Below are positions 1,167-55,459 of a DNA stretch of 64,000 nt, one piece after another. The position numbers and the translations under genes are program-made. The first letter of the stretch is position 1. Each line of letters opens with the position of its first letter. The notes below the pieces were generated by a model. That model worked only from the letters and a program-made list of their open reading frames with translations, was not told the DNA's origin and ran no database searches. This stretch comes from a virus (Duplodnaviria; Caudoviricetes): the IMG/VR virus record IMGVR_UViG_3300037484_000235, positions 64,001 through 128,000 of that record. The stretch is one strand, 5' to 3'.

Positions 1167-1493
1167 CTATTCGTCGTTGGATTCGGATCCGAAGAGTTCG
1201 TCCAGACGAAACTTCAGTGTGCGGGGCATGGCACAGTACTCGACCAACTTCCTGGTTTCTGGCTTGGACTTGAACGCATCCGAACCAGGCAAAGCTCCAC
1301 GCTCCCCACGGAGGTCTACCTCCCAGGTCCAGATGTCTTCCAAAAGCTTTTCCATGAGCTTTGCCCGAGCAAGCTCTTCCGCCAGATTCTCTAGGGTTGG
1401 GAATGTGTTGTCGCTGCGCATTTGGTCTGTCCCTCCATCTAGACAACGGGTGGGGGCCCAGAGTTTATATGCTTGAGGACACCAGACGGTCAT
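1167..1493 (-). CDS. hypothetical protein (alternative start 1421)
   Basis: ORF track; ATGA overlap with the upstream gene. Confidence 0.55.
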   Translation of the reverse strand: MTVWCPQAYKLWAPTRCLDGGTDQMRSDNTFPTLENLAEELARAKLMEKLLEDIWTWEVDLRGERGALPGSDAFKSKPETRKLVEYCAMPRTLKFRLDELFGSESNDE

Positions 1494-1984
1494 TCCTTTG
1501 ATGGATCTGGACCTACACCCAAGTCAACGAGATTCGATCCGGCAAATTGAAGAGATACCCGAGGTGTACCTTCAATTTCCTCGATTGCTGACAACACAGA
1601 TGATCGGACCTCCTTTTTGAGGCCCGATATACGACGCACTATGTTAGGGTGGCACTCGTAAGTGCAGGTCTCCTCAAACAGGGCGCTAAACACCATTGGG
1701 GTGATGGATCTCTTCAAGGCAGCAATGTCGGTTTTTTTGGACACTTGGAGGATGCTTTTTGGGAGAGTCACCATGGCACGGGTCATTCCCGTTCCTTCGA
1801 TGACTACAGTCCCAGGTATCTTGCGCTTGAGCTTAGCCTGGTTGCGTAGCTCGTCTTTCAATGGCACAAGAGCTTCATTTGCACGCTTGATGACATCCCA
1901 AAGGCGTGCCCCCGCTGCAATCCGGACCTCTAGTGGGAGGTTCGGATCTTTAGCAGCAAGCATGTCACGATCAGGATCGTCCAC
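1490..1984 (-). CDS. hypothetical protein
   Basis: 164-aa ORF in an operon-like string. Confidence 0.65.
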   Translation of the reverse strand: MDDPDRDMLAAKDPNLPLEVRIAAGARLWDVIKRANEALVPLKDELRNQAKLKRKIPGTVVIEGTGMTRAMVTLPKSILQVSKKTDIAALKRSITPMVFSALFEETCTYECHPNIVRRISGLKKEVRSSVLSAIEEIEGTPRVSLQFAGSNLVDLGVGPDPSKE

Positions 1985-1988
1985 AGCG

Positions 1989-2876
1989 CTACTTAGACGG
2001 GAAGCTTTCGGCGCGCACTACACCCTCACCAGGGATGTAGTAGCAAGCGTCCCCTTCCTTGATCTGGCTCCCGGATCTTGCACAGATCCCATCGTGTTGA
2101 GCAACCATCTTTTTCCCCTCAGGGGCAGGAGTCACACGTGCGACGGTCTGTGTATCTGAGAGAACAGACCCAATGATCGGCCTCAATTTGTCGATAGCCC
2201 TTTGGTTCTCTTTCGAGGATCCAGATGCAGCGACTGCGGCTATTCTGGCTGAGAGATTCGACAGCCCCTTAGCCAGGGTAGTTCCACACGGACTCGCAAG
2301 GGGGCAGTTAGTACAAGCTGGATCCTTCGAAGACCAGTATCCGTAACAGGGCGTATTGCCCTTGACGAGACTTCGAATGTAAGGATCCTGCATCCAGGCA
2401 GGTGCCCCGGTATCCTCTTGGGGGATTGGGGACCTGACAACAATAGGTTCCAGAGCCACTACAGGAATGGACTCCTTGACGTGTTGTGTGACTGACGGCA
2501 CTTCAGGTGAAACCACTGCCTTGGGCTCCTTCGGTGCCTTGGGCTCCTTCGGTGCCTCAGGTGCAGACTTCAGTCCGTTGAACTTCGTCCAATCCGCGAC
2601 CACTTCCCATCCTAGGGGGGTCAACCTCGTTGCCGTTGGACCGGGACCTGTGATGAGTCCCTTCTTGCGGAGGTGTGAAACCGCGTTGCTCATCGGGATG
2701 AGGACCGCAGGTCGCTTGTCCTTGAGACCCATGCAGTCACGCGTGAGTCCTAGATTGGCTAGTGCAAGATCCGAGAATACCGGGTAAGGATGACACGCAT
2801 CTTTGTCATCCTTACCGAGGGCGGCCAGAGCGTTGCAGATCGGTTTGTGCAGTTCGGAACCAGAAACGTTGGTCAT
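1989..2876 (-). CDS. Mrr_N-like winged-helix protein with APKEPK linker and two Cys-rich C-terminal motifs
   Basis: N-terminal KPIC.AL..L...SNA.S.LRKKGLI...LT.LGW is shared with 2956-3492 and 33138-34418; CYG..CTNCPLASPC and AQHDGICARSGSQI motifs. Confidence 0.65.
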   Translation of the reverse strand: MTNVSGSELHKPICNALAALGKDDKDACHPYPVFSDLALANLGLTRDCMGLKDKRPAVLIPMSNAVSHLRKKGLITGPGPTATRLTPLGWEVVADWTKFNGLKSAPEAPKEPKAPKEPKAVVSPEVPSVTQHVKESIPVVALEPIVVRSPIPQEDTGAPAWMQDPYIRSLVKGNTPCYGYWSSKDPACTNCPLASPCGTTLAKGLSNLSARIAAVAASGSSKENQRAIDKLRPIIGSVLSDTQTVARVTPAPEGKKMVAQHDGICARSGSQIKEGDACYYIPGEGVVRAESFPSK

Positions 2877-2955
2877 TGTGTGCGCGGTTCATCCCCATTT
2901 GCACAGGGAATACCTTTCTGGTTCTGTAACTCTTGGGATCGCCCTGTTTTCACGA

Positions 2956-3492
2956 TCAGATCGTCGGAACAGTCGGTTCCGCGGATTCCTCAGCTACCAC
3001 AGGGGCGACAGCCTTGGGCGCCTTCGGTGCCTTGGGCGCCTTGGGGGCCTTCGGTGCCTTGGGGGCCTTCGGTGCCTTGGGGGCCTTCGGTGCCTTGGGG
3101 GCCTTCGGTGCCTTGGGTGCCTTGGGTGCCTTGGGTGCCTTGGGCTCCTTCGGTGCCTTCGGTGCCTTGACAGGCATCTTCGGGAGTTCCGCACGTCCCT
3201 CTGCCACATCCCATCCAAGTGAAGTCAACTTGGACTTGCGACCATCGGATACGATGACACCACGCTGACGGAGGCTGAAAAGTGCGTTGCTCATCGGGAT
3301 GAGAACCGCAGCTCTCTTGTCCTTGAGACCCATGCAATCGAGCGTGAGGTTCAGGGACGCCAGTGCGTGATTTGCGAAGTCCATGAACTGGTGCCAGGAA
3401 TCCCTGTCGGCCTTGCCGAGTTCGGCTAGGGAGGCGTAGATTGGCTTGATGAGATCGCCCTGCGAAACCGTCTTTGTCGTTGTATTCGTCAT
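2956..3492 (-). CDS. winged-helix protein with (PKA)n tail, histone H1-like architecture
   Basis: same N-terminal domain as its paralogs, followed by about 17 PKA/PKE triplets. Confidence 0.7.
   Translation of the reverse strand: MTNTTTKTVSQGDLIKPIYASLAELGKADRDSWHQFMDFANHALASLNLTLDCMGLKDKRAAVLIPMSNALFSLRQRGVIVSDGRKSKLTSLGWDVAEGRAELPKMPVKAPKAPKEPKAPKAPKAPKAPKAPKAPKAPKAPKAPKAPKAPKAPKAPKAPKAVAPVVAEESAEPTVPTI
3011..3169. repeat. 9-bp tandem coding repeat (GCCTTGGGN/GCCTTCGGT) encoding PKA
   Basis: directly visible; an 18-bp sub-block also appears twice at about 2517-2556 in the paralog. Confidence 0.95.
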
Positions 3493-3555
3493 GATATTTC
3501 TCCGGATCTGAACACGAACTGTTTGGTGTTTACTGCATTGATTATGACAGGCCGC

Positions 3556-4743
3556 TCACCAACCATCGGTTAGTGGTCTGTCAGAAATGTGAGAGGTGTC
3601 CCCCTCATTGACCAGGCCCCCCTTGATATGTGGGTCCATGATCCTCTTGACGTTCTCCCTAGTGTCAGCATCTGGCATTCCGTCGAGAACGACCCGGGCG
3701 GCACGTTTGAGAAGTACCTCAAGCGCTACTGTACGTGGTAGGATCTCCAGAAGATCCTCAGCCGCACTTGCCCACGAGCAGACTGTACGGTGGCTCCACT
3801 CACAGTAGACTTCTTCCTTCTCTACACCTTCACGTACTGCAAATGTAGCACGCATCATAGTGCTGATTGCATTCGGAGCACGTTCCGCGAGCAGGGGGAA
3901 CTTTGCTTTCGCGATTGGCTCTTCGTCACGTAGATCCATTGAGTGGAACTGAATCTTACGCTCGAAGCGATCCAAAATGGATGCATCAATTGGATTTGAT
4001 GAGATGCATCGTCCCGTAGTGTCTCCGGCACCCGATGAATTTGCGGTGGCTACGATGGTTGTACCAGGAAACACCGGATAGATTTCACCGGTTGGCCCGC
4101 TGATGCGACCCTGGATTGAATCCAGTATCTGACGAAGCTCCTCCGCTTGTTGGCGTGTGGCCCGATCAAAATCTGAGAGGATAATCAGGTAAGGTACGCG
4201 CCTTCCACTACCGGTCAAGTAACCGTCTCGGAGAGCCTTGAGAAGAACTCCCTCTTCCCACTTCGTTCCTTGGGCGTCAAAGCTTCGTGTGAACTTCCAG
4301 GATTGGAGATCAGCACCCTGGACGACAGAAAAGAGAAGCGAGGGACGCCTGGTCATAGCACAGAGTGCCGACACGGCTGCGTCTTTGCCAACTCCAGGGG
4401 CGCCCCACACCCAAATCGAACGGCATTTCTTGACTGCTACAGCTACGTCCTGTACATCCCTGGCGAGAGGGCCGTGGGTTGGAACAGTGTAATGTGCTGG
4501 CATTGGCAAACAGGCGGATGCAGGAACCTCTATGTCAACTGGAAATGTCACCCCCGCGAACTTCAGAGAGAGCCCCTCTACAGTAGCTTCTTTCCGCTTC
4601 CCTGTGGTGGCCTCCGGGTACTGCACTAGGTACCCATCGAGTGACAGATCGTGTTCGTTGACGAGGTGATCCCCAAGCCAATGGGCTTCTATGCCACAGA
4701 TACGGCACTTGGCGAGACCAGATTGGGTAGCGATCATGTTCAT
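3556..4743 (-). CDS. MoxR/CobS-like AAA+ ATPase with N-terminal C2H2 zinc finger
   Basis: CRICG..HWLGDHLVNEH; Walker A WGAPGVGKD; Walker B IILSDFDR; VATANS; DASILDRF. Confidence 0.85.
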   Translation of the reverse strand: MNMIATQSGLAKCRICGIEAHWLGDHLVNEHDLSLDGYLVQYPEATTGKRKEATVEGLSLKFAGVTFPVDIEVPASACLPMPAHYTVPTHGPLARDVQDVAVAVKKCRSIWVWGAPGVGKDAAVSALCAMTRRPSLLFSVVQGADLQSWKFTRSFDAQGTKWEEGVLLKALRDGYLTGSGRRVPYLIILSDFDRATRQQAEELRQILDSIQGRISGPTGEIYPVFPGTTIVATANSSGAGDTTGRCISSNPIDASILDRFERKIQFHSMDLRDEEPIAKAKFPLLAERAPNAISTMMRATFAVREGVEKEEVYCEWSHRTVCSWASAAEDLLEILPRTVALEVLLKRAARVVLDGMPDADTRENVKRIMDPHIKGGLVNEGDTSHISDRPLTDGW

Positions 4744-4969
4744 TTGAGGACTAGATTGAGCGGCAGCCAATCACTGATTGATTCCTTACGCTTTCCAAAC
4801 GAACGAGGCGACTCATCTTACACGTTATGGGCAATCTTTCTCATAACCAATCGAAATTGCTGCATATTTTATTTCAACACACAGCTACCAATTGGGGACA
4901 GTACCCGGTAGGATTGCTGGATCGTGAAAAACTACTTTACCCAAACGTTGGGTGTGTAAGAAGGAGAAG

Positions 4970-7042
4970 ATGACCTCTACTACAGGTAAGGACATGATGG
5001 CAGGTTCGATTTCAGGGGCACGGGTGCGCTCGGGTCATCGGGCAAGCCTGTTTGGGATCTTGGGCAGAAAGATGATCCCCATCCACAGCAGTGGAACCGG
5101 ATTCATGATGCGGGGGCACTTCCCGTTCCGCCAGGTGCTCCAGAAGATAGTTGCGCACTCTAAAATCTCGGTTGACCCCCCCACTGATCTTATCTTCCGC
5201 AAGTGGGCCAGTCAAATCTCCAAGGACTCGAAGGTCAAACCGAGTATCCAAATCGCAGAGACAGGGGACCTGCTCACACGTCGTGAGTACATGGCACTGA
5301 TCGGAGGAGCGAATCATGAGGGGTGGCATCATCTCTACACTGCTCAGGGACCTGTGACAGGGGAAGAGTTGTCTCAATCTATCCTACCTGGCTATAGGGT
5401 CGGTGTACCGTACCACTTGTACCCCGATCTGTTGAGTGCATCCCAAAATGTCTTTGAGGACATCCACATTGAAAGGATTGGATGCGCGGAGTTTCCTGGT
5501 GCCTACACGAAGATGGCGGATCTGGCAGATTTCATTCTGGACCAGGAATCCAAAGCTCTCAAATCGAATCCTGAAACGAAAGAGTCTGCGGCTGGTACTG
5601 CGTTGTGTTTGATCCGTGAAGTTGGTTTCGGCTACAACACGGTGAAAACCAGAGCAGCGATGGATCACTATCGCTCGACGCACCCGGAAATCGTTGATCT
5701 TGTACTCAACGGTGCACTTTCGCCAGTCCTACGTGAGGCCATTCCGGATGTGTCCACACCGGCTGCAATCCTTCAAGCCAAAGAAAACAAGGGATTGTCT
5801 ACAACTCTTGCCCTTCGGTTTATTGCGCTGCTTCACGAACTGGTCGTGGCCCCACCTACCCCACCTGAACCGGAAAATCAAGGGGAGACACAACAGAACG
5901 ATCCAGAACAGGATCCAGAACAGGATGATCTGAAAGATCCGGAATCGAGTAATGGAGACCCGGTAGACCTCAGCAAGGAAGAAAGACCTGGAGGCACCTC
6001 CCCGGACGGTTCTGGTGAGGCTGCGGCGGCGATTCTCCAGTCTATACCCGATGGCGTGTTAGATTATGCGAGTGCTCTAGAGCAGGCTGTCTCAAATGCA
6101 CTCAAAGCGGAGGACAAGACCCAGGAAGCTGGCGAGATGCCCTACCGACCCTACACCACAACTCAAGATCAGACACTCAAACCTACGGAAAATGAGCCTG
6201 AAGCTCGTCTTCTAATCAAGAAGGTCATTGCCGGAACCAAGAGGGAGACATCGTTCCTTCGATCCAAGCTTCGACTCATGTTTCGTGCACTAGAGGATGG
6301 TGCCAGGTTCCATGGTGTTCGAAAAGGGACTGGGCTCTCTGAACGATTTCTGGTGGACACATTGGCTTCAATCCAAGATGGAAAGGACCCCTCTCGGGCT
6401 TTCTACGAGGACTCCACGTCGATGGACACATCGATAGCTGTTTGCATCGTAGTGGATGAGAGTTCCTCAATGTCTAGAAAGCTCAAAGACACAAGCGCAA
6501 TCCTCTACACCCTGTGTCAGTCCCTAGATTCGATTGAGGCTAACTTCTCTGTAGTGGGATTCCGTGACAGAGATATTGGCTATGTTCAGGGGGCGAAGAC
6601 CAATGTCGTTTACCACCGTCACGGTCCTATCACATACGACATTTTCAAGAGTTTTGAAGAAAAGTTCCGTAGCGTTTCATGGCGACTTGGGAACATCAAA
6701 GCAACCGGAGGCACTCCAATGGCCGATGGTATCGAGTTCGCCCTCAACGCTCTTTCAACACGACGGGAGGGGCACCGAATCCTTTTTGTAGTCACTGACG
6801 GTCAACCAAATCCAAACCACAGGCCAATCATTAAGGGTCAAATTCGCCGCGCCCAAGCGGCTGGTATTCTTGTCATCGGTGTGGGACTTGGAAAAGACGC
6901 CAGGTACGTTCAAACAACCTTCCCAGACAACGTGTGGGCCATGACCCTATCGAGTATCCCTGCTCTCCTTGTTGCCAAACTTCACGAAATGGTCAGAAAG
7001 ATTGGTACCTCTAAGCGAGGGATTCGAGTCAAGTCTGTCTGA
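4970..7042 (+). CDS. CobT-like vWA domain protein
   Basis: MIDAS motif VVDESSSM, ATGGTPM, VVTDGQP, VIGVGLG; acidic linker; AAGGAG SD. Confidence 0.85.
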   Translation: MTSTTGKDMMAGSISGARVRSGHRASLFGILGRKMIPIHSSGTGFMMRGHFPFRQVLQKIVAHSKISVDPPTDLIFRKWASQISKDSKVKPSIQIAETGDLLTRREYMALIGGANHEGWHHLYTAQGPVTGEELSQSILPGYRVGVPYHLYPDLLSASQNVFEDIHIERIGCAEFPGAYTKMADLADFILDQESKALKSNPETKESAAGTALCLIREVGFGYNTVKTRAAMDHYRSTHPEIVDLVLNGALSPVLREAIPDVSTPAAILQAKENKGLSTTLALRFIALLHELVVAPPTPPEPENQGETQQNDPEQDPEQDDLKDPESSNGDPVDLSKEERPGGTSPDGSGEAAAAILQSIPDGVLDYASALEQAVSNALKAEDKTQEAGEMPYRPYTTTQDQTLKPTENEPEARLLIKKVIAGTKRETSFLRSKLRLMFRALEDGARFHGVRKGTGLSERFLVDTLASIQDGKDPSRAFYEDSTSMDTSIAVCIVVDESSSMSRKLKDTSAILYTLCQSLDSIEANFSVVGFRDRDIGYVQGAKTNVVYHRHGPITYDIFKSFEEKFRSVSWRLGNIKATGGTPMADGIEFALNALSTRREGHRILFVVTDGQPNPNHRPIIKGQIRRAQAAGILVIGVGLGKDARYVQTTFPDNVWAMTLSSIPALLVAKLHEMVRKIGTSKRGIRVKSV

Positions 7043-7046
7043 GCAC

Positions 7047-7553
7047 GTGGTAGAGTCCAGGGTGCGTGCATGTCCCGATTGCGGTCTTTCCTACCAAGAC
7101 CCAAAAACAGTCTCCGAGAAGAACGCTCCGTTCGTATGCCCTGCATGTCTACGAAAGGCCGCACCGCGCCCCCCTGGGGGTTGGCCCATCGAACCCAGAT
7201 GGGTGAATGATTCCCGAGGAAGGGGCGTATTTGCCTCCCGTGACATCCTCAAGGGGGAAACGGTCGAACGCTGTTGGGTGATGCCACTCCCGGTCGAAGA
7301 GTCCAAGATGACTCTCACCATTCCCACAATCAATCGCTATCTGTTTCCATGGTCGGATGGTCAGCGAGCAATGCTTTCGGGTGAGGGACTACTCTACAAC
7401 TTTGACTCATTGGAGGCCACCAGACGCCAGCCCAACATGGAGTGTGTCCTGCGCAGAGGGATTGCCGCCATCGAGTTCCGGGCGATTCGGGACATCCGAG
7501 AAAACGAAGAGTTGACTTGGAATTACAAACGGGCGGTGTCTCGCAGGGAGTAA
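7047..7553 (+). CDS. Zn-ribbon plus SET domain protein (putative lysine methyltransferase)
   Basis: CPDC/CPAC; RGRGVFASRDI.KGE.VE; LYN...PN; FRAIRDIRENEELTWNY. Confidence 0.85.
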   Translation: MVESRVRACPDCGLSYQDPKTVSEKNAPFVCPACLRKAAPRPPGGWPIEPRWVNDSRGRGVFASRDILKGETVERCWVMPLPVEESKMTLTIPTINRYLFPWSDGQRAMLSGEGLLYNFDSLEATRRQPNMECVLRRGIAAIEFRAIRDIRENEELTWNYKRAVSRRE

Positions 7554-7563
7554 GTCCCCTGAT

Positions 7564-8034
7564 ATGGCACCACCCATCTCCAAGTTCTCTGGGCGGTACC
7601 GATTTCTGTCCAACTTCTTCCCAGCCCCGATTGTCATGAGCTTCGTCCATGAGGGCAAGAGATACAGATTCCTCATGCCCACCGTCGAGAATGCTTTTCA
7701 GGCTGCAAAGGTGGACACTCACATCATTGGACGTGTGGCTCGCATCCGGGCCTTTGTGGACCTCACGGCTGGGGAGGCAAAGAGGGCCGGTCGAAAAGTT
7801 GCCCTCCGATCTGATTGGGAGGGGATCAAATTATCAATCATGCACGCTCTTCTGGTCCAGAAGTTCTCCCATGCGGATCTTCGGGCCAGGCTCCTTGCAA
7901 CGGGGGACACTGAGCTGATCGAGGGAAATACTTGGGGGGATACTTGGTGGGGTGTTGATTTGCGAACAGGTGAAGGCGAAAATCATCTTGGGAAGACGCT
8001 AATGCGGGTTCGAGCCGAGATTCAGAGCGCCTAA
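7564..8034 (+). CDS. NADAR/YbiA family protein
   Basis: FLSNFFP; PTVENAFQAAK; AKRAGR; RSDWE; KF; LLATG..ELIEGN.WGD.WWG; GENHLGK.LM.VR. Confidence 0.9.
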   Translation: MAPPISKFSGRYRFLSNFFPAPIVMSFVHEGKRYRFLMPTVENAFQAAKVDTHIIGRVARIRAFVDLTAGEAKRAGRKVALRSDWEGIKLSIMHALLVQKFSHADLRARLLATGDTELIEGNTWGDTWWGVDLRTGEGENHLGKTLMRVRAEIQSA

Positions 8035-8057
8035 TCCATCTATTGGCCCCTAGAAGC

Positions 8058-8744
8058 ATGTCGAACCTTCGTTCTGGCCTCATCCGCCTCGCTCATAGCA
8101 AGCCAGAGTTTCGGCCTGCGATCCTGCCTCTGCTCAAGGAAGCCGGTTGTGAGAAACTCCCCGAAGGGGGTATGAGGGACAATTGCGAAAAGAAGGTCGA
8201 AGAGGGCAAGAAGGCATCCTCCTACCTCACTGAAGAGCAGTTTCGAGACAACAACCACACGCGCAACATGCGTTATCTAAACACGGCTCTTAAAGCGTTG
8301 TTGACGATTTCACGTTCTGTGAAATCCATTTACACCTCGGATGAGGGGGCACAACCGACGCGAGAGCAGTCGGCAGAGATGCTGATGACGGCTCAAGCCA
8401 TTGCGCTCAATGCTGGGGACATCGTCAAACTGGTGGGGCGTTCATCACGGACCACTAGAAGTAGGTCTTTCACCGCGAGTGCACGCCAAGAACTATTGTC
8501 CAAAACAGCCGCTTCGGAGATCCCTTTTTCGGAACTCCCAGAGCCTCAGATGGAACTCGTGAAGATCGTAGATCTGTCCCCGGTTACCATTTGGGATGGA
8601 GTCCACGGGTACATTGTGTCGTTCAAGAGCAGCTCACAAAGTGGGGCTCGGTTAGAGCGGGACACGCTCAAGAAGATTGTCGACCACAAGGACTTCCGTT
8701 GGATCTCCCCCTCTGGTAGGGGTAGCTTCTACATCGGGATGTGA
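8058..8744 (+). CDS. putative virion cargo protein with LRSxLIxLAHxxP motif
   Basis: begins MSNLRSGLIRLAHSKPEFRPAILPLLKEA; contains KxA junctions. Confidence 0.6.
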   Translation: MSNLRSGLIRLAHSKPEFRPAILPLLKEAGCEKLPEGGMRDNCEKKVEEGKKASSYLTEEQFRDNNHTRNMRYLNTALKALLTISRSVKSIYTSDEGAQPTREQSAEMLMTAQAIALNAGDIVKLVGRSSRTTRSRSFTASARQELLSKTAASEIPFSELPEPQMELVKIVDLSPVTIWDGVHGYIVSFKSSSQSGARLERDTLKKIVDHKDFRWISPSGRGSFYIGM

Positions 8745-8755
8745 GGACACCAATC

Positions 8756-9217
8756 ATGGAACCCAAGAGTCAATCCAATCAGTCAAGTCTTGCTCAGCTA
8801 CTTGCCGTTCTCAGGGCAATCCACTGGAGTCATTGGACGGCTCACTGGCAAGTCAAGGGGACACCATCGTATAGCGATCACATCCTCTTCGATAGCCTAT
8901 ACACGGGGATCCCGGCTGAGATAGATGCTCTGGCCGAGAAGATGGTTGCCTATTTTGGCGCGGAGGCAGTTGCACCAATACCCAGCATGGCCCTCTCGCA
9001 GCAATTCCTTGCGACCCATAGCAGTGAGCCCAACGTGTACCGGCGCGCGTTGAAGATGGAACTCCAACTTCAACGGACGCTTAAGCAGGTATACGAGTCA
9101 ATTGAAGACTCCAATGAAATGAGCCTTGGGCTTGACGACTTTCTCATGGCTGTTTCAAACACCCATGAGACCTCAATCTATCTCCTCCGCCAGAGGTTGC
9201 GACCGTCAGCCGTCTGA
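8756..9217 (+). CDS. ferritin/Dps-like four-helix protein
   Basis: HW.AHWQVKG..SY.DH.LF..LY...EID.LAE; final helix HE...YLL. Confidence 0.8.
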   Translation: MEPKSQSNQSSLAQLLAVLRAIHWSHWTAHWQVKGTPSYSDHILFDSLYTGIPAEIDALAEKMVAYFGAEAVAPIPSMALSQQFLATHSSEPNVYRRALKMELQLQRTLKQVYESIEDSNEMSLGLDDFLMAVSNTHETSIYLLRQRLRPSAV

Positions 9218-9853
9218 GTCCGGAGTAGATTCTTCCGCAGGACCGTTGATACCAGACATCTGCGATGCAGTGTCAGCGAGTGCTCTGGGTAGTAACTCCC
9301 CGTACTGCTCAACGGGGAGCAAGAACTTGCCGTCCTTTGTCTTCCCTGAGGCATCAAGTCCCTTGAGGAATTCCCCCATGACCGTGTAGAGGAAGTGCCA
9401 GACCTCGGGATTGCCCTGGGCGACAGGGTCCCCCTTCGCTGCCCAGACGAACTTCTTGGCGCGATTGACCAAGGCGAACATCTCCCGGGGCTTCAGGGAA
9501 CACCACAGGATGGTTCGGGTGCCCGAGGGGGATAGCTGATTCGTCGTGGCATCAAGGTGTGCTTCCAGCACGCGCTTGAAGAGTGCGGTGCGGGTGACGG
9601 TCTTCCCCTCATAGATCTCCGGGAACGCAGGGCTCCACACCCCCTGCTCGTAGGAGGACAGGAGGAAGTTCGATCCGTGAATCAGCCAGAACTCGTAGCC
9701 CGTCTGCGGATTCAAGGTGAAGTGTTCCAGGGAGTGCTTCTTCTTCTCCCGAAACTTGGTGGCTTCGCGGGCCTTTTCGATTTGTCGGTCTTTGGACCTG
9801 GCACTTGCCTTTTTTGCTCGTGTGCCTGCCTTCTGTGCTTTGTTCTTTGACAT
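9206..9853 (-). CDS. hypothetical protein with basic N-terminus
   Basis: 215-aa ORF; GGTGTAAGG motif just upstream. Confidence 0.7.
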   Translation of the reverse strand: MSKNKAQKAGTRAKKASARSKDRQIEKAREATKFREKKKHSLEHFTLNPQTGYEFWLIHGSNFLLSSYEQGVWSPAFPEIYEGKTVTRTALFKRVLEAHLDATTNQLSPSGTRTILWCSLKPREMFALVNRAKKFVWAAKGDPVAQGNPEVWHFLYTVMGEFLKGLDASGKTKDGKFLLPVEQYGELLPRALADTASQMSGINGPAEESTPDSDG

Positions 9854-9888
9854 TCCCACACCTTACACCCGGCGTAACGTACAACGTG

Positions 9889-11466
9889 ATGAATCCTGTT
9901 CTTGATCAGCAGAGGGCGTGGGAGCTTCTTTCGAGTGGCGCCCATGAAGTTGCACGCGTCGTGTCCAAGACCTTCGGCCCTGCGGGCGGCAAGGTCATGA
10001 TAGAGAAGGCAGGGTCGGTCCTTGTAACGACTGATGGGGCCGCACTCACACGCGAGACTCAGCTTGACGGTGCGAAGAGACTGGGTGCGACCCTCATCCG
10101 ATCTGCCGCAATCAAGACCGATGAGCAAGTTGGAGATGGGACTTCCACAACGGTGATCTTGGCGGACGCTCTCATCCGGGAGATTGGAAAGAGGGCTTGT
10201 GTGCACGGCTGGGATCCGGTGTGCACGGTAGCTCAAATCCGAGAAGCTCATCTGGAGGCAGAGGGTCAGATTCAGCATATGTCCCGCCTCGCAGATCGTG
10301 AGTGTTTGGATCGGATAGCCCTCATGGCTTCCCATGAAGACCCACTCATTGCCGAGAAGGTAGTTGAGGCGGTGCTTGCAGTAGGCGAGGGCGGGTCCGT
10401 GGTGATCTCGCCCTACGAGGGGACGGGGATTGTCCTTGAGCAGAAGGCCGGACTTTATCTCAATCAAGGGTGGACCTCCTTCGATATGGCACCGGCAGAC
10501 GGATCCACCGAGCGGGAGATGGATGGGCCTCTCGTGGCCGTGTTCCGCCAAGGACTTCGACGGGTGGGTGACATTGCGACTGCGATGGAGCAAGCGAGTC
10601 AGTGGCCGGGTCGTGGTCTCGTGGTGTTTGCGCCCAGTATCCAGGGGGATGCCCTCAAGACCCTCTTGGTCAATGACAAGAAGGGCGTGCTCTCGTGTGT
10701 GGGTGTCGAGTACTCGGGGTCATCTGCGGACCTGGACGACTGGCTTGAGGACATCTCGGCAGTCACCAATTCGATGATCGTGGATACAGGGACAGGGATG
10801 TCCCCTGAGAAGTTCGAGGGGTCGTGGTTGGGTTCCGCTCGAAGAGTGACCCTGACTCGGGAACACACACTCGTCGTCTCCTACCTGGATGGGGATATTC
10901 CCCAGAAGATTGATCTGAGAGTTGCCCAGCTTCGGGCGCGAGCCGAGGTCTCCCCCTACCCCTACGAGAAGGCCAAGCTCACGGAGCGTGCTTCGGCGAT
11001 CGATGGGGGCCTCTGTACGCTGCGGATCGGTGGACTCACCAAGCAGGAGGGTCAGGACCGTCGCTCACGGGTCGAGGATGCCCTCAAGGCTGTGCAGACG
11101 TGTCTGAGGGGCGGCGTGGTTCCTGGAGCGGGCTACGCGCTGTTCAGGGCCTGTGTGTGGCTCCCTCAGACCGAGGGCGGCGTGATACTGGACAGGGCTC
11201 TCATGTCGGTCCTGGGCACGCTGGCGAGCCGGGCGGGGGCAGAGCCTCAGACCGTTTTTCGGGAGGGCATGGAGGTCACTCTGTACGATCCCGATGGGTG
11301 GTACGGGTGGGATCCACTGCTTGGGGATTGGCGAGACTTCTGGGTGACGGCCCCACGAATCGTAGACCCCACTGAAGTCGTGTTGGCAGCTCTTAGGAAT
11401 GCCGTATCCGTTGCTTGTCAGATCGCTTTGTGCGGGGTGGTCCTTGGAGTGCACCCAAAACGATAA
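9889..11466 (+). CDS. groEL: GroEL-like chaperonin (divergent)
   Basis: KTFGP.G; TTDG; VGDGTSTT; LRIGG.T; RVEDAL.A; GGVVPGAG; IVDPTEV...AL.NA.SVA. Confidence 0.9.
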   Translation: MNPVLDQQRAWELLSSGAHEVARVVSKTFGPAGGKVMIEKAGSVLVTTDGAALTRETQLDGAKRLGATLIRSAAIKTDEQVGDGTSTTVILADALIREIGKRACVHGWDPVCTVAQIREAHLEAEGQIQHMSRLADRECLDRIALMASHEDPLIAEKVVEAVLAVGEGGSVVISPYEGTGIVLEQKAGLYLNQGWTSFDMAPADGSTEREMDGPLVAVFRQGLRRVGDIATAMEQASQWPGRGLVVFAPSIQGDALKTLLVNDKKGVLSCVGVEYSGSSADLDDWLEDISAVTNSMIVDTGTGMSPEKFEGSWLGSARRVTLTREHTLVVSYLDGDIPQKIDLRVAQLRARAEVSPYPYEKAKLTERASAIDGGLCTLRIGGLTKQEGQDRRSRVEDALKAVQTCLRGGVVPGAGYALFRACVWLPQTEGGVILDRALMSVLGTLASRAGAEPQTVFREGMEVTLYDPDGWYGWDPLLGDWRDFWVTAPRIVDPTEVVLAALRNAVSVACQIALCGVVLGVHPKR

Positions 11467-32308: not shown

Positions 32309-33184
32309 ATGAAAGTCGACCTGAGCAAGCTGGTCAGGGATTTTGTCCAAGACGGTATCTTCCCTGCGGACGTGAATCTACCGGCTTCCAGACAGAGATT
32401 GGGACTCTCGGTTGACTTCGTCAATTCGGAGTCAGAGCTTCGAAAAGAGCTGTTCAACTCTGACGGATCAACCAATTTCGTTGGGATTTGGACGTTTCCA
32501 GATCACATGGACAAGAACAGTGGTGGAGGGATAACTACTGATGATTGGTCCAGATCCCTCATCAACAAGTTCCTGAGGAGATTCCCTGGAACAGAAACGC
32601 TATTGGCTAAGGAGTTCACTGAGAAAGTGCGCCAACAGTGGGGCTTTCACATTCAGCACGAGGTTGAGGATTGGTTCAGGACTCAAACAGAGAAGCCGTT
32701 CAGTCAACTGGTGGGTTATCGGGAGTCCCAGGAATGGATCCCTACCACTCTCGTTAGAGTCTTGTCCTCAATCGTCGGTGACAACCCCTCATGGACCAGG
32801 AACAACGGCCTGGTGATGCCTTTCCGTGTGAAGGCCATAATCCAGGCCACCAAGAAGAAGCCAGTGGGCCACTCTGTCGGGCCATTTTCCAACATGTCTG
32901 ATCAGGAGTTGAATGTGTGGATCCTCGTGTGGAAAGAGGATGCTCCAGAGAACTTCTGGATGGACGGAGAGCTTCGTTTGACACTGAACCATGCCATTGC
33001 ATTCTACCGGAAACAGTGGCGTGCGAAGACTCCCAGAGAGCAGACAAACCTTCTAGAGTCACTCATGTCGTCGGGTCACCGTGTGGCGTCCCCCAAGAGA
33101 GTCGCCACACGGTTTGAGACAACGCGGGAGCCGGGGGTCAGTCGATCACATCTTCCTTACGAAGGAACTCTCGGATCTTCGTGA
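32309..33184 (+). CDS. putative virion protein with C-terminal RVATRF motif
   Basis: ATG 32309. Confidence 0.6.
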   Translation: MKVDLSKLVRDFVQDGIFPADVNLPASRQRLGLSVDFVNSESELRKELFNSDGSTNFVGIWTFPDHMDKNSGGGITTDDWSRSLINKFLRRFPGTETLLAKEFTEKVRQQWGFHIQHEVEDWFRTQTEKPFSQLVGYRESQEWIPTTLVRVLSSIVGDNPSWTRNNGLVMPFRVKAIIQATKKKPVGHSVGPFSNMSDQELNVWILVWKEDAPENFWMDGELRLTLNHAIAFYRKQWRAKTPREQTNLLESLMSSGHRVASPKRVATRFETTREPGVSRSHLPYEGTLGSS

Positions 33185-34418
33185 GCATCACGGCCATCTG
33201 ACTGCGGGATACCCCAGCCTGAGCCGCCAGACCAGTCCGCTTCTCCCCGTCAAGGGCAGCATCGAACAGGGCCATATATTTGGCCCCATTTCCCATCTTG
33301 CGGAGAATCAGACTGCGAGCATTCTCGATGGTTTCGGCGGAGATGATCTTGTCTTCCGCACTCTGGAGATTGGGATTGTAGAGTTCACCCACGAATTCGC
33401 CATCCTCGATCTCGTACCGACGCTCGATGACGCTGTCCACCGAGTGAATGACCACCGTGGGGAGCTTCCCTGCGTCAGCCATACGATCGCGATTGGTCTT
33501 GGCACCTCGTGAGGTTCGCAGACTAGCGTCCACACCCCAGCTACGCATCTCAGTGCAGGCAGAGTGATATGCCCAAACACGGAGCACGCCAATCTGGACC
33601 TTCTTGCCAGCCATCAGGTAGGGGGCGAGAGTGTCCCGCTCGATGAGCCGAAGGAGAAACACCTGAACGTGGTCCTTGATCACTCCCATTCGACGTGACA
33701 TTTCAAGCTTGCAGATCAGGTGCTGGACCAGGATGGGACCCAGATCATGGTGTTCGGCGATCCACCTGGAGGTAAGGTTTCTACGGTCGATTGCCTTGAA
33801 GACTGCCTTCCCCAAGTCACTCTGCACGTACTTGCTCAGGCCGTAGCCCTCGTCAGAAAATCCAGCGAGAAACTCTTGATCCTCCCGGAGGAAATCCGTA
33901 AGAGCCGATCGAACTGTGACCTCAGGATCCTTTGGATCCACCACGATTGCAGTGGTGGGAAGGGACATCTCAGGAACGACAGGTGCCGTTTCAGCCTGAA
34001 TGGGGGTGGGGGCGGTGACAGTCTTGGTGACCTTGGGCTCCCGAGGTGCCTTGGGGGCAGCCTTCCGTGTTCCCTTCAGGGCTGGGAACTTCGTCTCCCA
34101 ATCTGTCAGGGTGTCCCACCCAAGAGCCGTCAGCTTCGTTGCTGGGCTACCGACGAGAATCCCCATCTTTCGGAGATCTTGGGCGGCATTGCTCACCGCG
34201 TGAAGCACAGAGGGACGCCCGTTTCGGGTGCCCATGCAATCGATCGAGAGACCCTCAGCGGCTAGCACGCGCGCTGAGTACACTGCGTAGAGATGAACAG
34301 CCTCCTTGTCTCCCTTGCTGAGTTCCGCCAGAGCGGTACAGATTGGCCTGAGCAGGTCTGCGCTCAGGACTGTCTTCGTTACGACCCCCGAAAATGAGGA
34401 ATTCCCACGCTGTGACAT
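33138..34418 (-). CDS. winged-helix plus sigma70-like (region 2 and region 4) fusion protein
   Basis: N-terminal domain paralogous to 1989/2956 ORFs; RVWAYHSACTEMR; C-terminal HTH GEKRTGLAAQAGVSRSQM. Confidence 0.55.
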   Translation of the reverse strand: MSQRGNSSFSGVVTKTVLSADLLRPICTALAELSKGDKEAVHLYAVYSARVLAAEGLSIDCMGTRNGRPSVLHAVSNAAQDLRKMGILVGSPATKLTALGWDTLTDWETKFPALKGTRKAAPKAPREPKVTKTVTAPTPIQAETAPVVPEMSLPTTAIVVDPKDPEVTVRSALTDFLREDQEFLAGFSDEGYGLSKYVQSDLGKAVFKAIDRRNLTSRWIAEHHDLGPILVQHLICKLEMSRRMGVIKDHVQVFLLRLIERDTLAPYLMAGKKVQIGVLRVWAYHSACTEMRSWGVDASLRTSRGAKTNRDRMADAGKLPTVVIHSVDSVIERRYEIEDGEFVGELYNPNLQSAEDKIISAETIENARSLILRKMGNGAKYMALFDAALDGEKRTGLAAQAGVSRSQMAVMLTKIREFLRKEDVID

Positions 34419-54340: not shown

Positions 54341-55299
54341 GCGAGGAGAACACCACACCCGTTCTTCTCGTGGGCGGTTCCGATGAGTATCAGCGTCGAA
54401 GGCTGGTCAACAAGGTCGTAAGCACTCGGCGTGGCGAGGGGTGGAGCGTCATGCCTGTCGACGGCAAGGAAGAGGGGGCGTTGAACCCCGTGTTCGCCAT
54501 GTCTTCGATGTTCGAGGGGTCGACCTTGTGTGTGGTGAGCAATCCAGAGAAGCTTCCGGTGGCCGTTGTAGCCGACCACATACAGTCCCCGGATCCTAAG
54601 GTGGTGTTGCTCCTGGTGGCTGAGGGCGACAAGCTTTCCGGACCCATCTTTGATCTGGTGCCCAAGGGGTGTGTGAAGACCTTTGCCCTTCCCCCGTTCT
54701 ACAAGCTCGACGAACATGCTGCGGCCTTCGTGCAGAACGAGGTAAAGGCCCGGGGGAGCAAGATCGAATCGGGGCTGGCTTCCTCCTGGGTTCGACGCGT
54801 CGGGAATGACCTTGGGGTGTTGTCGTTTGAGGTGCAGAAGGCCGTGCTGTTTGCGGGTGATGGGGTTGAACTAACTGCTTCCCACCTGAGAGAGACCCTC
54901 GCGGCTCTTTCAGAGACGGATGGATCTGCGGTCTTGGAAGCTCTTGGAAGGAAAGATTCTAAGCACCTATCCATGGAGATGCAGAAGTACCGTCAGTCCA
55001 GGGGCGGGGACCCTACGATCGAGCTGTGTGGACGTACTTTGACTCCGTCCCTTACTCGTTGGCTTCAAGCTGCACACCTTGCCCAAGCCGGAATGTCCTC
55101 GGCAGCAGCAGCTGGAAGTGTGGGGGCAAACCCTTGGTACTGGGAGCACAAGATTCTTCCTTACGCAATGCGTTCTGGGGTCGTTGGGTGTGCTCGCATG
55201 CTCGGTATCGTGGCAGACGCACAGACCCTGGTCTTCCGTGGCGGGATCAATCCGTTTGCCTATCTGGAAGCCTCTTTTCTGGCCTTTTTTCAGGGGTGA
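54337..55299 (+). CDS. holA: DNA polymerase III delta-like clamp-loader subunit
   Basis: LL.GG.DEY; SMF; G.DLG.L..E.QK; adjacent to the holB-like gene. Confidence 0.7.
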   Translation: MSEENTTPVLLVGGSDEYQRRRLVNKVVSTRRGEGWSVMPVDGKEEGALNPVFAMSSMFEGSTLCVVSNPEKLPVAVVADHIQSPDPKVVLLLVAEGDKLSGPIFDLVPKGCVKTFALPPFYKLDEHAAAFVQNEVKARGSKIESGLASSWVRRVGNDLGVLSFEVQKAVLFAGDGVELTASHLRETLAALSETDGSAVLEALGRKDSKHLSMEMQKYRQSRGGDPTIELCGRTLTPSLTRWLQAAHLAQAGMSSAAAAGSVGANPWYWEHKILPYAMRSGVVGCARMLGIVADAQTLVFRGGINPFAYLEASFLAFFQG

Positions 55300-55459
55300 C
55301 GGTTCTCCCTCTCATTTTCCTATAGACCTCCCTTCTTACGAACCCAGTGCCGAGTTCGGGGTGTCAGCCTGGTGCAGTTCTCTTGGAGTGGCGGAGAGAA
55401 CTGCGGCTGAGATTCAGATGACAACGCCACGATTCCGCATCCGCACAAATGGAGCCCCC

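What the first reader, a model, noticed from the sequence alone, without database searches (positions are those of the whole stretch)
1989..7553. Histone H1-like winged-helix/PKA-tail proteins encoded near a SET lysine methyltransferase
ORF 2956-3492 is a winged-helix-like domain plus about 17 PKA repeats. That matches the globular domain plus K/A/P-rich tail layout of linker histone H1. Its neighbour 1989-2876 is a paralog with a shorter tail. A SET-domain gene, uncommon in phages, lies 3.5 kb away; its NH-motif is altered (LYNFDS). Hypothesis: a phage nucleoid-condensing system regulated by lysine methylation.
Basis: inference. Interest (0 to 1): 0.68.

Follow-up and report, generated by a model that had tools for sequence, protein, structure and literature searches.

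The report
Phage winged-helix proteins with lysine tail
Two neighbouring genes of a giant uncultured phage are recent copies of a DNA-reader-like protein that always travels with a CobS-like motor ATPase; one copy has grown a histone-H1-like lysine tail, but nothing ties it specifically to the nearby SET methyltransferase.

Summary
ORF 2956-3492 is a winged helix followed by about 17 Pro-Lys-Ala units. ORF 1989-2876 is its paralog. A Pfam-significant SET gene with NF in place of NH lies 3.5 kb away.

The winged helix is Mrr_N-like. It resembles the H1 globular domain no more than dozens of other winged helices do.

The family's usual form is winged helix, Pro-rich spacer and a Cys-rich C-domain, which ORF 1989-2876 also carries. 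In every related contig long enough (at least 10 lineages) this gene sits between a CobS-like AAA+ ATPase gene and a ~150-165-aa gene. That trio stays together when the VWA and SET genes move 8-18 kb away.

The window's three copies (the third, 33138-34418, is fused to a sigma-like domain) arose inside this lineage. The pure PKA tail is a recent expansion of an older PK[E/A] repeat. A tail-only copy arose independently in another lineage.

SET belongs to a separate conserved block with a Dps-like gene, a Lys/Arg-tailed protein and GroEL.

Best reading: a DNA-anchoring subunit of the ATPase module, plus a derived, convergently H1-like, strongly cationic copy. DNA binding and any methylation are untested.

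The parts
2956..3492 (-). P0002, 178 aa: Mrr_N-like winged helix (res 1-104), then 16 KAP + KEP + KAV units (+17 charge), then a short acidic end. It is a tail-only derived paralog.
   Evidence: tree
3011..3169 (-). The 9-bp tandem repeat that encodes the PKA tail: 17.7 copies, 82% matches. Variation among KAP units is synonymous.
1989..2876 (-). P0003, 295 aa: the family's usual architecture. It has a winged helix (res 1-100), a short PKE/PKA stretch, an acidic Pro/Val-rich spacer and a Cys-rich C-domain (res ~155-295). The C-domain has invariant CX10CX2CX5C, a further invariant Cys and a C-terminal YxPGxG hairpin.
1490..1984 (-). g164, a 164-aa protein of unknown fold. It starts 4 nt after P0003 ends and follows the winged-helix gene in every related locus.
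   Evidence: AF2 model of low confidence
3556..4770 (-). CobS-like AAA+ ATPase (Pfam AAA_5) with an N-terminal C-x2-C...H-x5-H extension. It lies directly upstream of the winged-helix gene in all related loci that reach far enough.
4952..7042 (+). CobT-like VWA protein with an acidic Pro-rich linker, divergent from the ATPase gene. It is adjacent in some lineages and 10 kb away or absent in others.
7062..7553 (+). Zn-ribbon + SET methyltransferase. The ORF is open from TTG 6969; the likely start is GTG 7062, giving 163 aa. N of the NH motif is kept and H is replaced by F.
33138..34418 (-). P0001, 426 aa: the third paralog. Winged helix and K/P/A linker are fused to a ~250-aa domain with a weak sigma-70/ECF match. 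Its homologs in other huge phages lack the winged helix.
8741..9859 (.). Dps-like gene (8741-9217, +) and g217 (9206-9859, -; K/R-rich N-terminal tail). With GroEL (9805-11466) these are the constant neighbours of SET in related phages.

Best explanation
The two ORFs are recent, lineage-specific copies of one gene family confined to a clade of 250-500-kb uncultured phages. The usual family member has a Mrr_N-type winged helix, a long Pro-rich spacer and a Cys-rich, probably metal-binding, C-domain. It is encoded as the middle gene of a fixed trio: CobS-like AAA+ ATPase, winged-helix protein, ~160-aa protein. I read it as the nucleic-acid-anchoring subunit of that ATPase module, and P0003 (1989-2876) still has this form.

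P0002 (2956-3492) is a truncated duplicate. It kept the winged helix and turned the spacer's older PK[E/A] repeat into 17 pure PKA units with +17 charge. That gives it a linker-histone-like layout by convergence, not by descent. P0002 most likely binds DNA strongly and with little sequence preference through the cationic, probably polyproline-II-like arm, while the winged helix supplies the family's site or modification preference. It then either coats DNA or competes with P0003 at the same sites.

The same winged-helix plus arm module was also fused to a sigma-like protein (P0001), as expected of a portable DNA-targeting module. The SET gene belongs to a different conserved block and is not a dedicated partner.

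Shown here: gene structure, paralogy, fold class, synteny and duplication history. Inferred: DNA binding, metal binding, and physical association with the ATPase.
For: Paralogy and fold.

Rarity of the family: 9 proteins at E <= 1e-3 among 1.84 billion representatives. The usual architecture with the C-domain is seen in P0006-P0009, P0011, P0013 and P0014.

The trio ATPase -> winged helix -> g164 occurs in every locus long enough. ATPase identity to the window ranges from 82% down to 49% over the full protein, and is 38% where only a fragment is held. The trio survives where VWA is 10 kb away and SET 18 kb away. The winged-helix and g164 pair survives in LR745208.1, where no ATPase is found.

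Duplication history: the three window copies form one clade with support 98/93, and the tail-only P0010 of another lineage falls elsewhere. The nearest relative (ATPase 82%) has a single 344-aa gene with ~15 PK[E/A] repeats.

In both lineages with a tail-only copy, that copy holds the long Lys-rich arm and its Cys-domain neighbour has only a short one.

Protein-level conservation of the repeat. Uniqueness in the contig.

P0001 fusion. Its closest relative's genome has the sigma-like protein (P0019) but only one winged-helix match.

Precedent for K/A/P tails that raise DNA binding: mycobacterial HupB and Ku (PMC5676037, PMC3553676).
Against: No DNA-binding test exists, and a winged helix can also be a protein-docking domain.

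The more distant family members have Thr/Pro/Val-rich or acidic spacers without a Lys arm. The nearest relative's repeat is mixed-charge PKE/PKA. So the ancestral role of this segment looks like a spacer, not a DNA-binding arm.

With Pro at every third residue, the tail cannot form the helices I recall being reported for the DNA-bound H1 tail (own knowledge, not checked here).

The C-domain and g164 have no recognisable fold or family, so the module's activity is unknown.

The ATPase is only remotely CobS-like (23% identity), and what viral CobS/CobT pairs do is itself unsettled (PMC8651126).

P0002 could be a young duplicate on its way to loss.
Confidence: 0.55

Rival explanations
1. First reader's model. 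P0002, with P0003, is a phage linker-histone analogue that condenses phage or host DNA, and the neighbouring SET enzyme methylates lysines of the PKA tail to tune binding.
For: The layout is winged helix plus a tail of K 32%, A 30%, P 32%. SET is intact and under strong constraint. SET lies in the same 0-8-kb neighbourhood as the winged-helix gene in four lineages: the window; L013/L028/the P0006 contig; LR745208.1 if that record is circular; and L034. There is a precedent: Chlamydia pneumoniae cpnSET binds Hc1 and Hc2 and methylates the H1-like Hc1, and Methanosarcina Go1-SET methylates MC1-alpha (PMC3980110).
Against: Tail-only, Lys-rich copies exist in only two lineages and arose late, whereas SET is conserved at 54-81% identity in at least 72 clusters. 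No SET lies within 10 kb of the trio in L005, L008 or L010, and the distance is 18 kb in L035. SET's invariant neighbours are the Dps-like gene, g217 with a conserved K/R-rich N-tail, and GroEL, which offer other candidate substrates. There is no sequence membership in the H1 family.
Confidence: 0.1
2. The PKx repeat is only a stiff polyproline-II spacer, like the XPZ region of streptococcal surface proteins or the TonB rod. P0002 is then a decoy, a regulator, or a decaying duplicate that titrates the winged helix's target without delivering the Cys-rich domain.
For: The repeat in the nearest relative is mixed-charge PKE/PKA. Distant members have non-basic Pro-rich spacers. The only NCBIfam hit of the tail is the Pro-periodic repeat region of the group B streptococcus IgA-binding protein. 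P0002 lacks the effector domain.
Against: The E-to-A purification to +17 charge and the expansion are specific to the copy that lost the C-domain. The same split of a long Lys-rich arm in the tail-only copy and a short arm in the Cys-domain copy arose a second time, in the L005/L007 lineage. All differences among KAP units are synonymous, and the ORF is intact with a GGAG upstream.
Confidence: 0.2
3. The winged helix is a protein-docking domain, for example onto the CobS-like hexamer or RNA polymerase, and the family has nothing to do with DNA. The trio would be a chaperone or metal-insertion system with the Cys-rich protein as its client.
For: From established knowledge, MoxR/CobS-class AAA+ proteins with VWA partners mature metal centres (NorQD, CbbQO, CoxD, chelatases). 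The C-domain has five invariant cysteines. Winged helices in cullins, cohesin kleisins and MukE/F are protein-binding modules and appear among the fold matches.
Against: The best family-level similarity is to Mrr_N, the N-terminal domain of Mrr-type restriction endonucleases. The most conserved residues lie in the recognition helix (S-N-A/G...L-R..G) and in the wing (T..G). The module was fused to a sigma-like protein, which makes sense for DNA targeting.
Confidence: 0.1

Closest known systems
Mrr_N winged helix (Pfam PF14338), the N-terminal domain of Mrr-type restriction endonucleases
   Same: Same fold and helix/wing pattern. ESM Atlas structural matches reach TM 0.69-0.73, and 5 of 11 members give weak Pfam hits.
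   Different: All hits are below the Pfam threshold. There is no nuclease domain. The winged helix is followed by a Pro-rich spacer and a new Cys-rich domain, or by a Lys tail only.
Linker histone H1/H5
   Same: Winged-helix globular domain followed by a K/A/P-rich cationic tail. H1.8 and H1x globular domains align at Z 7.8 and 7.6.
   Different: No sequence family match. The fold match is tied with many unrelated winged helices. The tail is a strict 3-residue Pro-periodic repeat of 56 residues, and it is a recent derivative of a spacer. No nucleosomes are present.
Bacterial DNA-binding proteins with H1-like K/A/P repeat tails (mycobacterial HupB/MDP1, M. smegmatis Ku PAKKA repeats; Chlamydia Hc1/Hc2)
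   Same: A low-complexity Lys/Ala/Pro repeat is appended to a DNA-binding fold. In those proteins the tail raises or modulates DNA binding (PMC5676037, PMC3553676, PMC2932737). The review PMC3980110 reports that Hc1 is methylated by a SET enzyme.
   Different: A different globular fold (winged helix rather than HU or Ku), a different repeat unit, a phage origin, and no biochemical data.
Viral cobS/cobT two-gene cluster (AAA+ ATPase plus VWA protein) of tailed phages and archaeal viruses (PMC8651126; phrog_249)
   Same: An AAA_5 ATPase whose nearest known relative is CobS, with a divergently encoded VWA protein that has an acidic Pro-rich linker.
   Different: Only ~23% identical to phage CobS and far below the NCBIfam CobS cut-off. 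It carries an N-terminal Cys/His extension. It is always followed by the winged-helix/Cys-rich gene and g164, which I did not find described for cobST clusters. The VWA partner is not always adjacent.
Small bacterial and fungal SET lysine methyltransferases (S. pombe Set7, PDB 5h6z)
   Same: The SET fold matches over the whole domain. The GxG motif, the Asn of the NH motif and the C-terminal Tyr are present.
   Different: There is an N-terminal CxxC...CxxC zinc ribbon. The His of NH is replaced by F, L or Y throughout the clade, with a 6-residue insert before the PN motif.

Membership tests
Linker histone H1/H5 (Pfam Linker_histone) | Globular domain matches the family's sequence profile | tested here: not met
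   No Pfam Linker_histone hit for P0002 or P0003 at E <= 0.1. None for any of 11 N-domains at E <= 10.
Linker histone H1/H5 (Pfam Linker_histone) | Globular domain has the H1/H5 winged-helix structure specifically | tested here: inconclusive
   H1.8 (7kbf_K) gives Z 7.8, rmsd 2.6, 71 aligned; H1x (2lso) gives Z 7.6. Both are tied with MarR, PadR, ORC, TubR and others at Z 7.5-9.7.
Linker histone H1/H5 (Pfam Linker_histone) | Long C-terminal tail rich in Lys, Ala and Pro | tested here: met
   56 residues with K 32%, P 32%, A 30% and net +17. However, it is strictly Pro-periodic and recently derived.
Linker histone H1/H5 (Pfam Linker_histone) | Binds and compacts DNA or chromatin | not testable with these tools
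   Needs gel-shift and compaction assays.
Mrr_N winged helix (PF14338) | Match to the family profile above the curated threshold | tested here: not met
   5 of 11 members hit, best E 0.0011, none reported at the default threshold. P0002 itself has no hit.
Mrr_N winged helix (PF14338) | Same three-dimensional fold | tested here: met
   The ESM Atlas model of P0002 residues 6-104 matches Mrr_N clusters at TM 0.69-0.73, 91-92 residues aligned. The AF2 model of the paralog is confident, pLDDT 80-93.
SET-domain lysine methyltransferase (PF00856) | Profile match above the Pfam gathering score | tested here: met
   43.1 bits against 22.4, E 6.1e-11. Also 44.5 bits in the genome search.
SET-domain lysine methyltransferase (PF00856) | Catalytic and cofactor motifs: GxG, Asn-His, C-terminal Tyr | tested here: inconclusive
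   GRG, Asn and the Tyr of ELTWNY are invariant. His is replaced by F, L or Y in all 18 aligned homologs. Activity is not testable here.
Cobaltochelatase subunit CobS (NCBIfam TIGR01650) | Equivalog-level profile match | tested here: not met
   25 bits against a cut-off of 558.55. 23% identity to phage CobS. PDB CobS E 1.6e-5 over 169 residues. Pfam AAA_5 is met at 31.6 against 22.
CobT-type VWA subunit | VWA domain with CobT_C profile | tested here: inconclusive
   VWA scores 41 bits against 23.8 (met). CobT_C scores 19.3 against 21, just below.
Sigma-70 family (for the third paralog P0001) | Match to sigma-70/ECF profile above threshold | tested here: not met
   TIGR02937 scores 16.8 bits against 42.9, E 0.004. 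No Pfam hit. 28 homologs have no Pfam domains on record. The resemblance to sigma regions 2 and 4 is by eye only.
[4Fe-4S] cluster motif of DNA enzymes (EndoIII/MutY C-X6-C-X2-C-X5-C; AddB/Cas4/Dna2 C-Xn-C-X2-C-X5-C) | Four Cys with the C-X2-C-X5-C spacing that bind an iron-sulfur cluster | tested here: inconclusive
   C-X10-C-X2-C-X5-C is invariant in 8 members. The comparison with the known motifs is from memory. There is no profile or fold match. The metal content is not testable here.

The most novel reading that the evidence does not exclude
Huge phages have twice, independently, made a linker-histone-like protein by truncating the DNA-anchoring subunit of a CobS-like AAA+ module and expanding its Pro-Lys repeat. 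These tail-only proteins coat or condense DNA during infection. The conserved trio would then show that the widespread viral CobS/CobT-like motors act on DNA-bound complexes rather than in cobalamin synthesis. Methylation by the conserved SET enzyme remains possible.
Probability: 0.15. Interest if true: 0.65.

Novelty: new variant of a known kind. Interest (0 to 1): 0.4.

Why it matters
Viral CobS/CobT-like gene pairs are common in tailed phages and archaeal viruses. They are usually assumed to boost host cobalamin synthesis (PMC8651126), without a test that I know of. In this clade the ATPase gene is inseparable from a gene for a winged-helix, probably DNA-binding, Cys-rich protein and a small partner. 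This gives a concrete, testable alternative for what such motors act on.

The tail-only copies show, caught in the act, how a linker-histone-like architecture can arise in a virus from a spacer repeat. The result also removes a tempting but unsupported 'phage chromatin writer plus substrate' story. It points to better-linked candidate substrates for the phage SET enzyme, namely the Dps-like protein and the K/R-tailed g217.

Tried and rejected
- **DNA and protein searches in deposited phages.** Megablast of 1400-9300 and tblastn of P0002 found nothing.
- **First protein searches.** The word-index search with the N-domain found nothing. The first IMG/VR pattern scan built from the window's own paralogs also found nothing.
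- **PDB sequence searches.** Searches with the N-domain, the C-domain and the C-part of P0001 gave only chance-level rows.
- **Foldseek against PDB.** It gave only generic winged helices, none at E <= 1e-3 and no H1/H5 in the top 50. I do not count this absence as evidence.
- **C-domain.** The AF2 model is below pLDDT 65. ESM Atlas feature and structure matches are all weak, TM <= 0.40. Per-member Pfam hits are scattered (DUF3331 twice, TP2 twice, GcrA once). No fold is assigned.
- **g164.** The AF2 model has mean pLDDT 51 and there is no family hit, so I ran no fold search on it.
- **Complex prediction of P0003 with g164.** No verdict: score 0.00 against a mark of 0.32. This is not evidence either way.
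- **Sigma-70 promoter and terminator scan of 1300-7700.** No more sites than in shuffles.
- **Searching whole metagenome contigs behind L005, L008 and L010 for SET.** Not possible, as those records are not held. Absence of SET is therefore stated only for +/-10 kb.
- **An idea I dropped.** I first thought SET is far more widespread than the winged-helix family. I dropped this after L034 and L035 showed diverged family members that the profile had missed.
- **Protease-junction idea.** I considered that the PKA repeat might hold the Lys/Arg-x-Ala junctions noted elsewhere in this genome. The spacing does not fit, because K is followed directly by A.

Full report
**Setting.** The window is bases 64001-128000 of a 252.5-kb IMG/VR virus record that CheckV rates 57% complete. 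It is a huge phage. Its only relative among 50,697 deposited phage records is the 485-kb uncultured phage LR745208.1. The region of the finding reads as follows.
- On the minus strand: a CobS-like AAA+ ATPase (4770-3556), P0002 (3492-2956), P0003 (2876-1989) and g164 (1984-1490).
- Divergently on the plus strand: a VWA/CobT-like protein (4952-7042), SET (to 7553), NADAR, an unknown gene and a Dps-like gene.
- Then g217 on the minus strand, and GroEL.

**Checking the observation.**
- P0002 and P0003 share an N-terminal ~97 residues at 55% identity, E 2e-30.
- The tail of P0002 is a 9-bp tandem repeat of 17.7 copies. It encodes 16 KAP units plus KEP and KAV, net charge +17, followed by a short acidic end.
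- The KAP units use four different DNA words that differ only at synonymous positions.
- No other ORF in the 252-kb contig has such a stretch.
- SET is a significant Pfam match. It reads YNFDS where S. pombe Set7 reads FNHD.

P0003 has a further ~140-residue Cys-rich domain. A third paralog, P0001 (33138-34418), exists. SET probably starts at GTG 7062, which gives the 163 aa typical of its homologs.

**What the N-domain is.**
- AF2 on a six-sequence alignment models residues 1-100 with pLDDT 80-93 as helix-strand-helix-helix plus a beta-hairpin wing.
- The ESM Atlas model of P0002 matches Mrr_N clusters at TM 0.69-0.73.
- Five of eleven family members give weak Pfam Mrr_N hits, best E 0.0011. 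No other family is hit by more than one member, and Linker_histone is never hit.
- An exhaustive structural comparison finds winged helices of every kind at Z 7.5-9.7. H1.8 and H1x fall in the middle of that tie.

The domain is therefore a Mrr_N-like winged helix. Its likeness to the H1 globular domain is generic.

**What the family is.** A profile search of 1.84 billion representative proteins found only nine proteins at E <= 1e-3. A C-domain profile scan of metagenome contigs added more.
- The usual member has a winged helix, a Pro-rich spacer (Lys-rich next to the winged helix in the window's subclade, then acidic) and a C-domain.
- The C-domain has invariant C-X10-C-X2-C-X5-C, a further invariant Cys and a C-terminal Y-x-P-G-x-G hairpin. 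P0003 has this form.
- From memory, the C-X2-C-X5-C spacing recalls the iron-sulfur motifs of EndoIII/MutY and AddB/Cas4. No profile or fold search supports a family assignment.

**Gene neighbourhood.** In every related contig that reaches far enough, the winged-helix gene lies directly downstream of the CobS-like ATPase gene and directly upstream of a g164 homolog. These contigs are the P0006 and P0007 contigs, L005/6/7/30, L008, L009, L010/11, L013/L027/L028, L025, L031, L034 and L035. ATPase identity to the window runs from 82% down to 49% over the full protein, and is 38% where only a fragment is held.
- In L035 the VWA gene is 10 kb away and SET 18 kb away, yet the trio is intact.
- In LR745208.1 no ATPase or VWA gene is found. 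A degenerate winged-helix/Cys gene is still followed by g164.

The ATPase's nearest known relatives are phage and bacterial CobS, at about 23% identity and far below the NCBIfam cut-off. It is CobS-like, not CobS. Viral cobST clusters are known and widespread, and their role is presumed rather than shown (PMC8651126).

**History of the copies.**
- On a tree of N-domains, the window's three copies form one supported clade (98/93). P0010, the tail-only protein of the L005/L007 lineage, falls elsewhere.
- The nearest relative (L025, ATPase 82%) has a single 344-aa gene. Its spacer holds about fifteen PK[E/A] units of mixed charge.
- So the window's phage duplicated the gene recently. One copy lost the C-domain and purified and expanded the repeat to PKA. 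The other kept the C-domain with a short, nearly neutral PKE/PKA stretch.
- The same split into a tail-only copy with a long Lys-rich arm and a Cys-domain copy with a short arm arose independently in the L005/L007 lineage, in the same gene order.
- A further duplication fused the winged helix and its K/P/A linker to a ~250-aa domain that weakly resembles ECF sigma factors. That domain's 28 homologs in other huge phages carry other N-termini. The closest relative's genome has the sigma-like protein but only one winged-helix match.
- More distant family members have Thr/Pro/Val-rich or acidic spacers with no Lys arm. The ancestral role of the segment therefore looks like a spacer.

**The SET gene.** It belongs to a well-conserved family of ~163-aa zinc-ribbon-plus-SET proteins: at least 72 clusters at 54-81% identity, many on contigs of 90-350 kb.
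- The Asn of the NH motif, the GRG motif and the C-terminal Tyr are invariant. The residue after Asn is F, L or Y in all 18 aligned sequences. The 'altered' motif is thus a stable clade feature, not decay.
- In seven SET contexts examined beyond the window (L013, L028, LR745208.1 and L020 to L023), SET is followed by a Dps-like gene, a g217 homolog and GroEL. The P0006 contig shows SET, the Dps-like gene and GroEL by Pfam.
- The window is unusual in having NADAR and one more gene inserted between SET and the Dps-like gene.
- g217 homologs keep a Lys/Arg-rich N-terminal tail.
- SET lies 0-8 kb from the trio in four lineages and 18 kb away in L035. It is not within 10 kb in L005, L008 and L010.

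This is the pattern of two conserved blocks on a shared genome backbone, not of a dedicated enzyme-substrate pair. It does not exclude methylation of P0002. Precedents exist in Chlamydia (cpnSET and Hc1) and Methanosarcina (PMC3980110).

**Mechanism proposed.** I read the family as the nucleic-acid-anchoring subunit of a CobS-like AAA+ module.
- The conserved recognition-helix motif (S-N-A/G...L-R..G) and wing motif (T..G), the Mrr_N likeness and the fusion to a sigma-like protein all fit a DNA-targeting module.
- P0002 is a derived stand-alone version whose +17 arm should bind DNA strongly. With Pro at every third residue, the arm probably forms an extended polyproline-II rod with all lysines on one edge.
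- P0002 would act either as a coating protein or as a competitor of P0003.
- K/A/P repeat tails are known to raise or modulate DNA binding in mycobacterial HupB and Ku (PMC5676037, PMC3553676).
- DNA binding, metal binding and contact with the ATPase are all inferences.
- An earlier, unchecked note of this scan (e1-914891) reports a winged helix fused directly to a viral CobS-like ATPase in another genome. That would fit, but I could not test it.

**Verdict.** The H1 analogy is an architectural convergence in a recent derivative. The SET-regulated condensation system is not supported. What is new is the conserved trio and the repeated birth of tail-only, Lys-rich copies. Interest is moderate.

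Noticed in passing
window 33138-34418 (-): A third paralog (P0001, 426 aa). The same winged helix and K/P/A linker are fused to a ~250-aa domain with a weak ECF sigma-factor match (TIGR02937, E 0.004). 28 homologs in other huge-phage contigs carry other N-terminal extensions, some with 'LGGEHT..LGQA' repeats or Lys-rich stretches.
   Followed up: partly
window 7062-11466; L013, L014, L020-L023, L028, L035: A conserved block of SET, a Dps-like gene (DUF5856/ferritin-like), g217 and GroEL in every SET-bearing contig examined. g217 homologs keep a Lys/Arg-rich N-terminal tail, which makes g217 or the Dps-like protein better-linked candidate SET substrates than the PKA-tail protein.
   Followed up: partly
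window 7564-8744: A NADAR gene (Pfam 85.5 bits) and an unknown 233-aa gene sit between SET and the Dps-like gene in this phage only. In L013, L028 and LR745208.1, SET and the Dps-like gene are adjacent.
   Followed up: no
window 8043-8744 (residues 4-34 of the product): The first ~30 residues of this protein match, at 62-65% identity, short stretches elsewhere in related phages (L019 15183-15275, L021 11961-12041, L034 18969-19049). This is probably the portable N-terminal tag described in earlier notes on this genome.
   Followed up: no
window 3556-4770 (-), residues ~20-45: The CobS-like ATPase has an N-terminal extension with a C-x2-C...H-x5-H pattern that is conserved in L005 and L031. It may be a zinc finger, and I do not recall one in canonical CobS (not checked here).
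   Followed up: no
window 55079-57445 (+): Ribonucleotide reductase with weak class II (B12-dependent) hints: RNR_Alpha domain, and the RNR-II insertion domain below its cut-off. It is relevant to the usual idea that viral CobS/CobT serve cobalamin supply.
   Followed up: no
LR745208.1 (L019 1-5516; L014 1-3800): In this 485-kb phage the place of the CobS-like and VWA genes, taken across the record ends, holds a TnpB-like transposase gene, RtcB and a LAGLIDADG-like ORF. The winged-helix/Cys gene there has lost its C-terminal hairpin and has no Lys arm.
   Followed up: partly
L005 7841-8760 versus L007 3750-4709: The Cys-domain gene is read in two frames in L005/L006 but is intact (319 aa) in L007, which is from a related sample. 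This is either a frameshift or an assembly difference.
   Followed up: no
P0005 (79 aa, from another sample): A protein identical to P0002 over the first 55 of 56 residues and then unrelated. It is probably a contig break or frameshift near the repeat, and it hints that the phage or a near twin occurs in a second sample.
   Followed up: no
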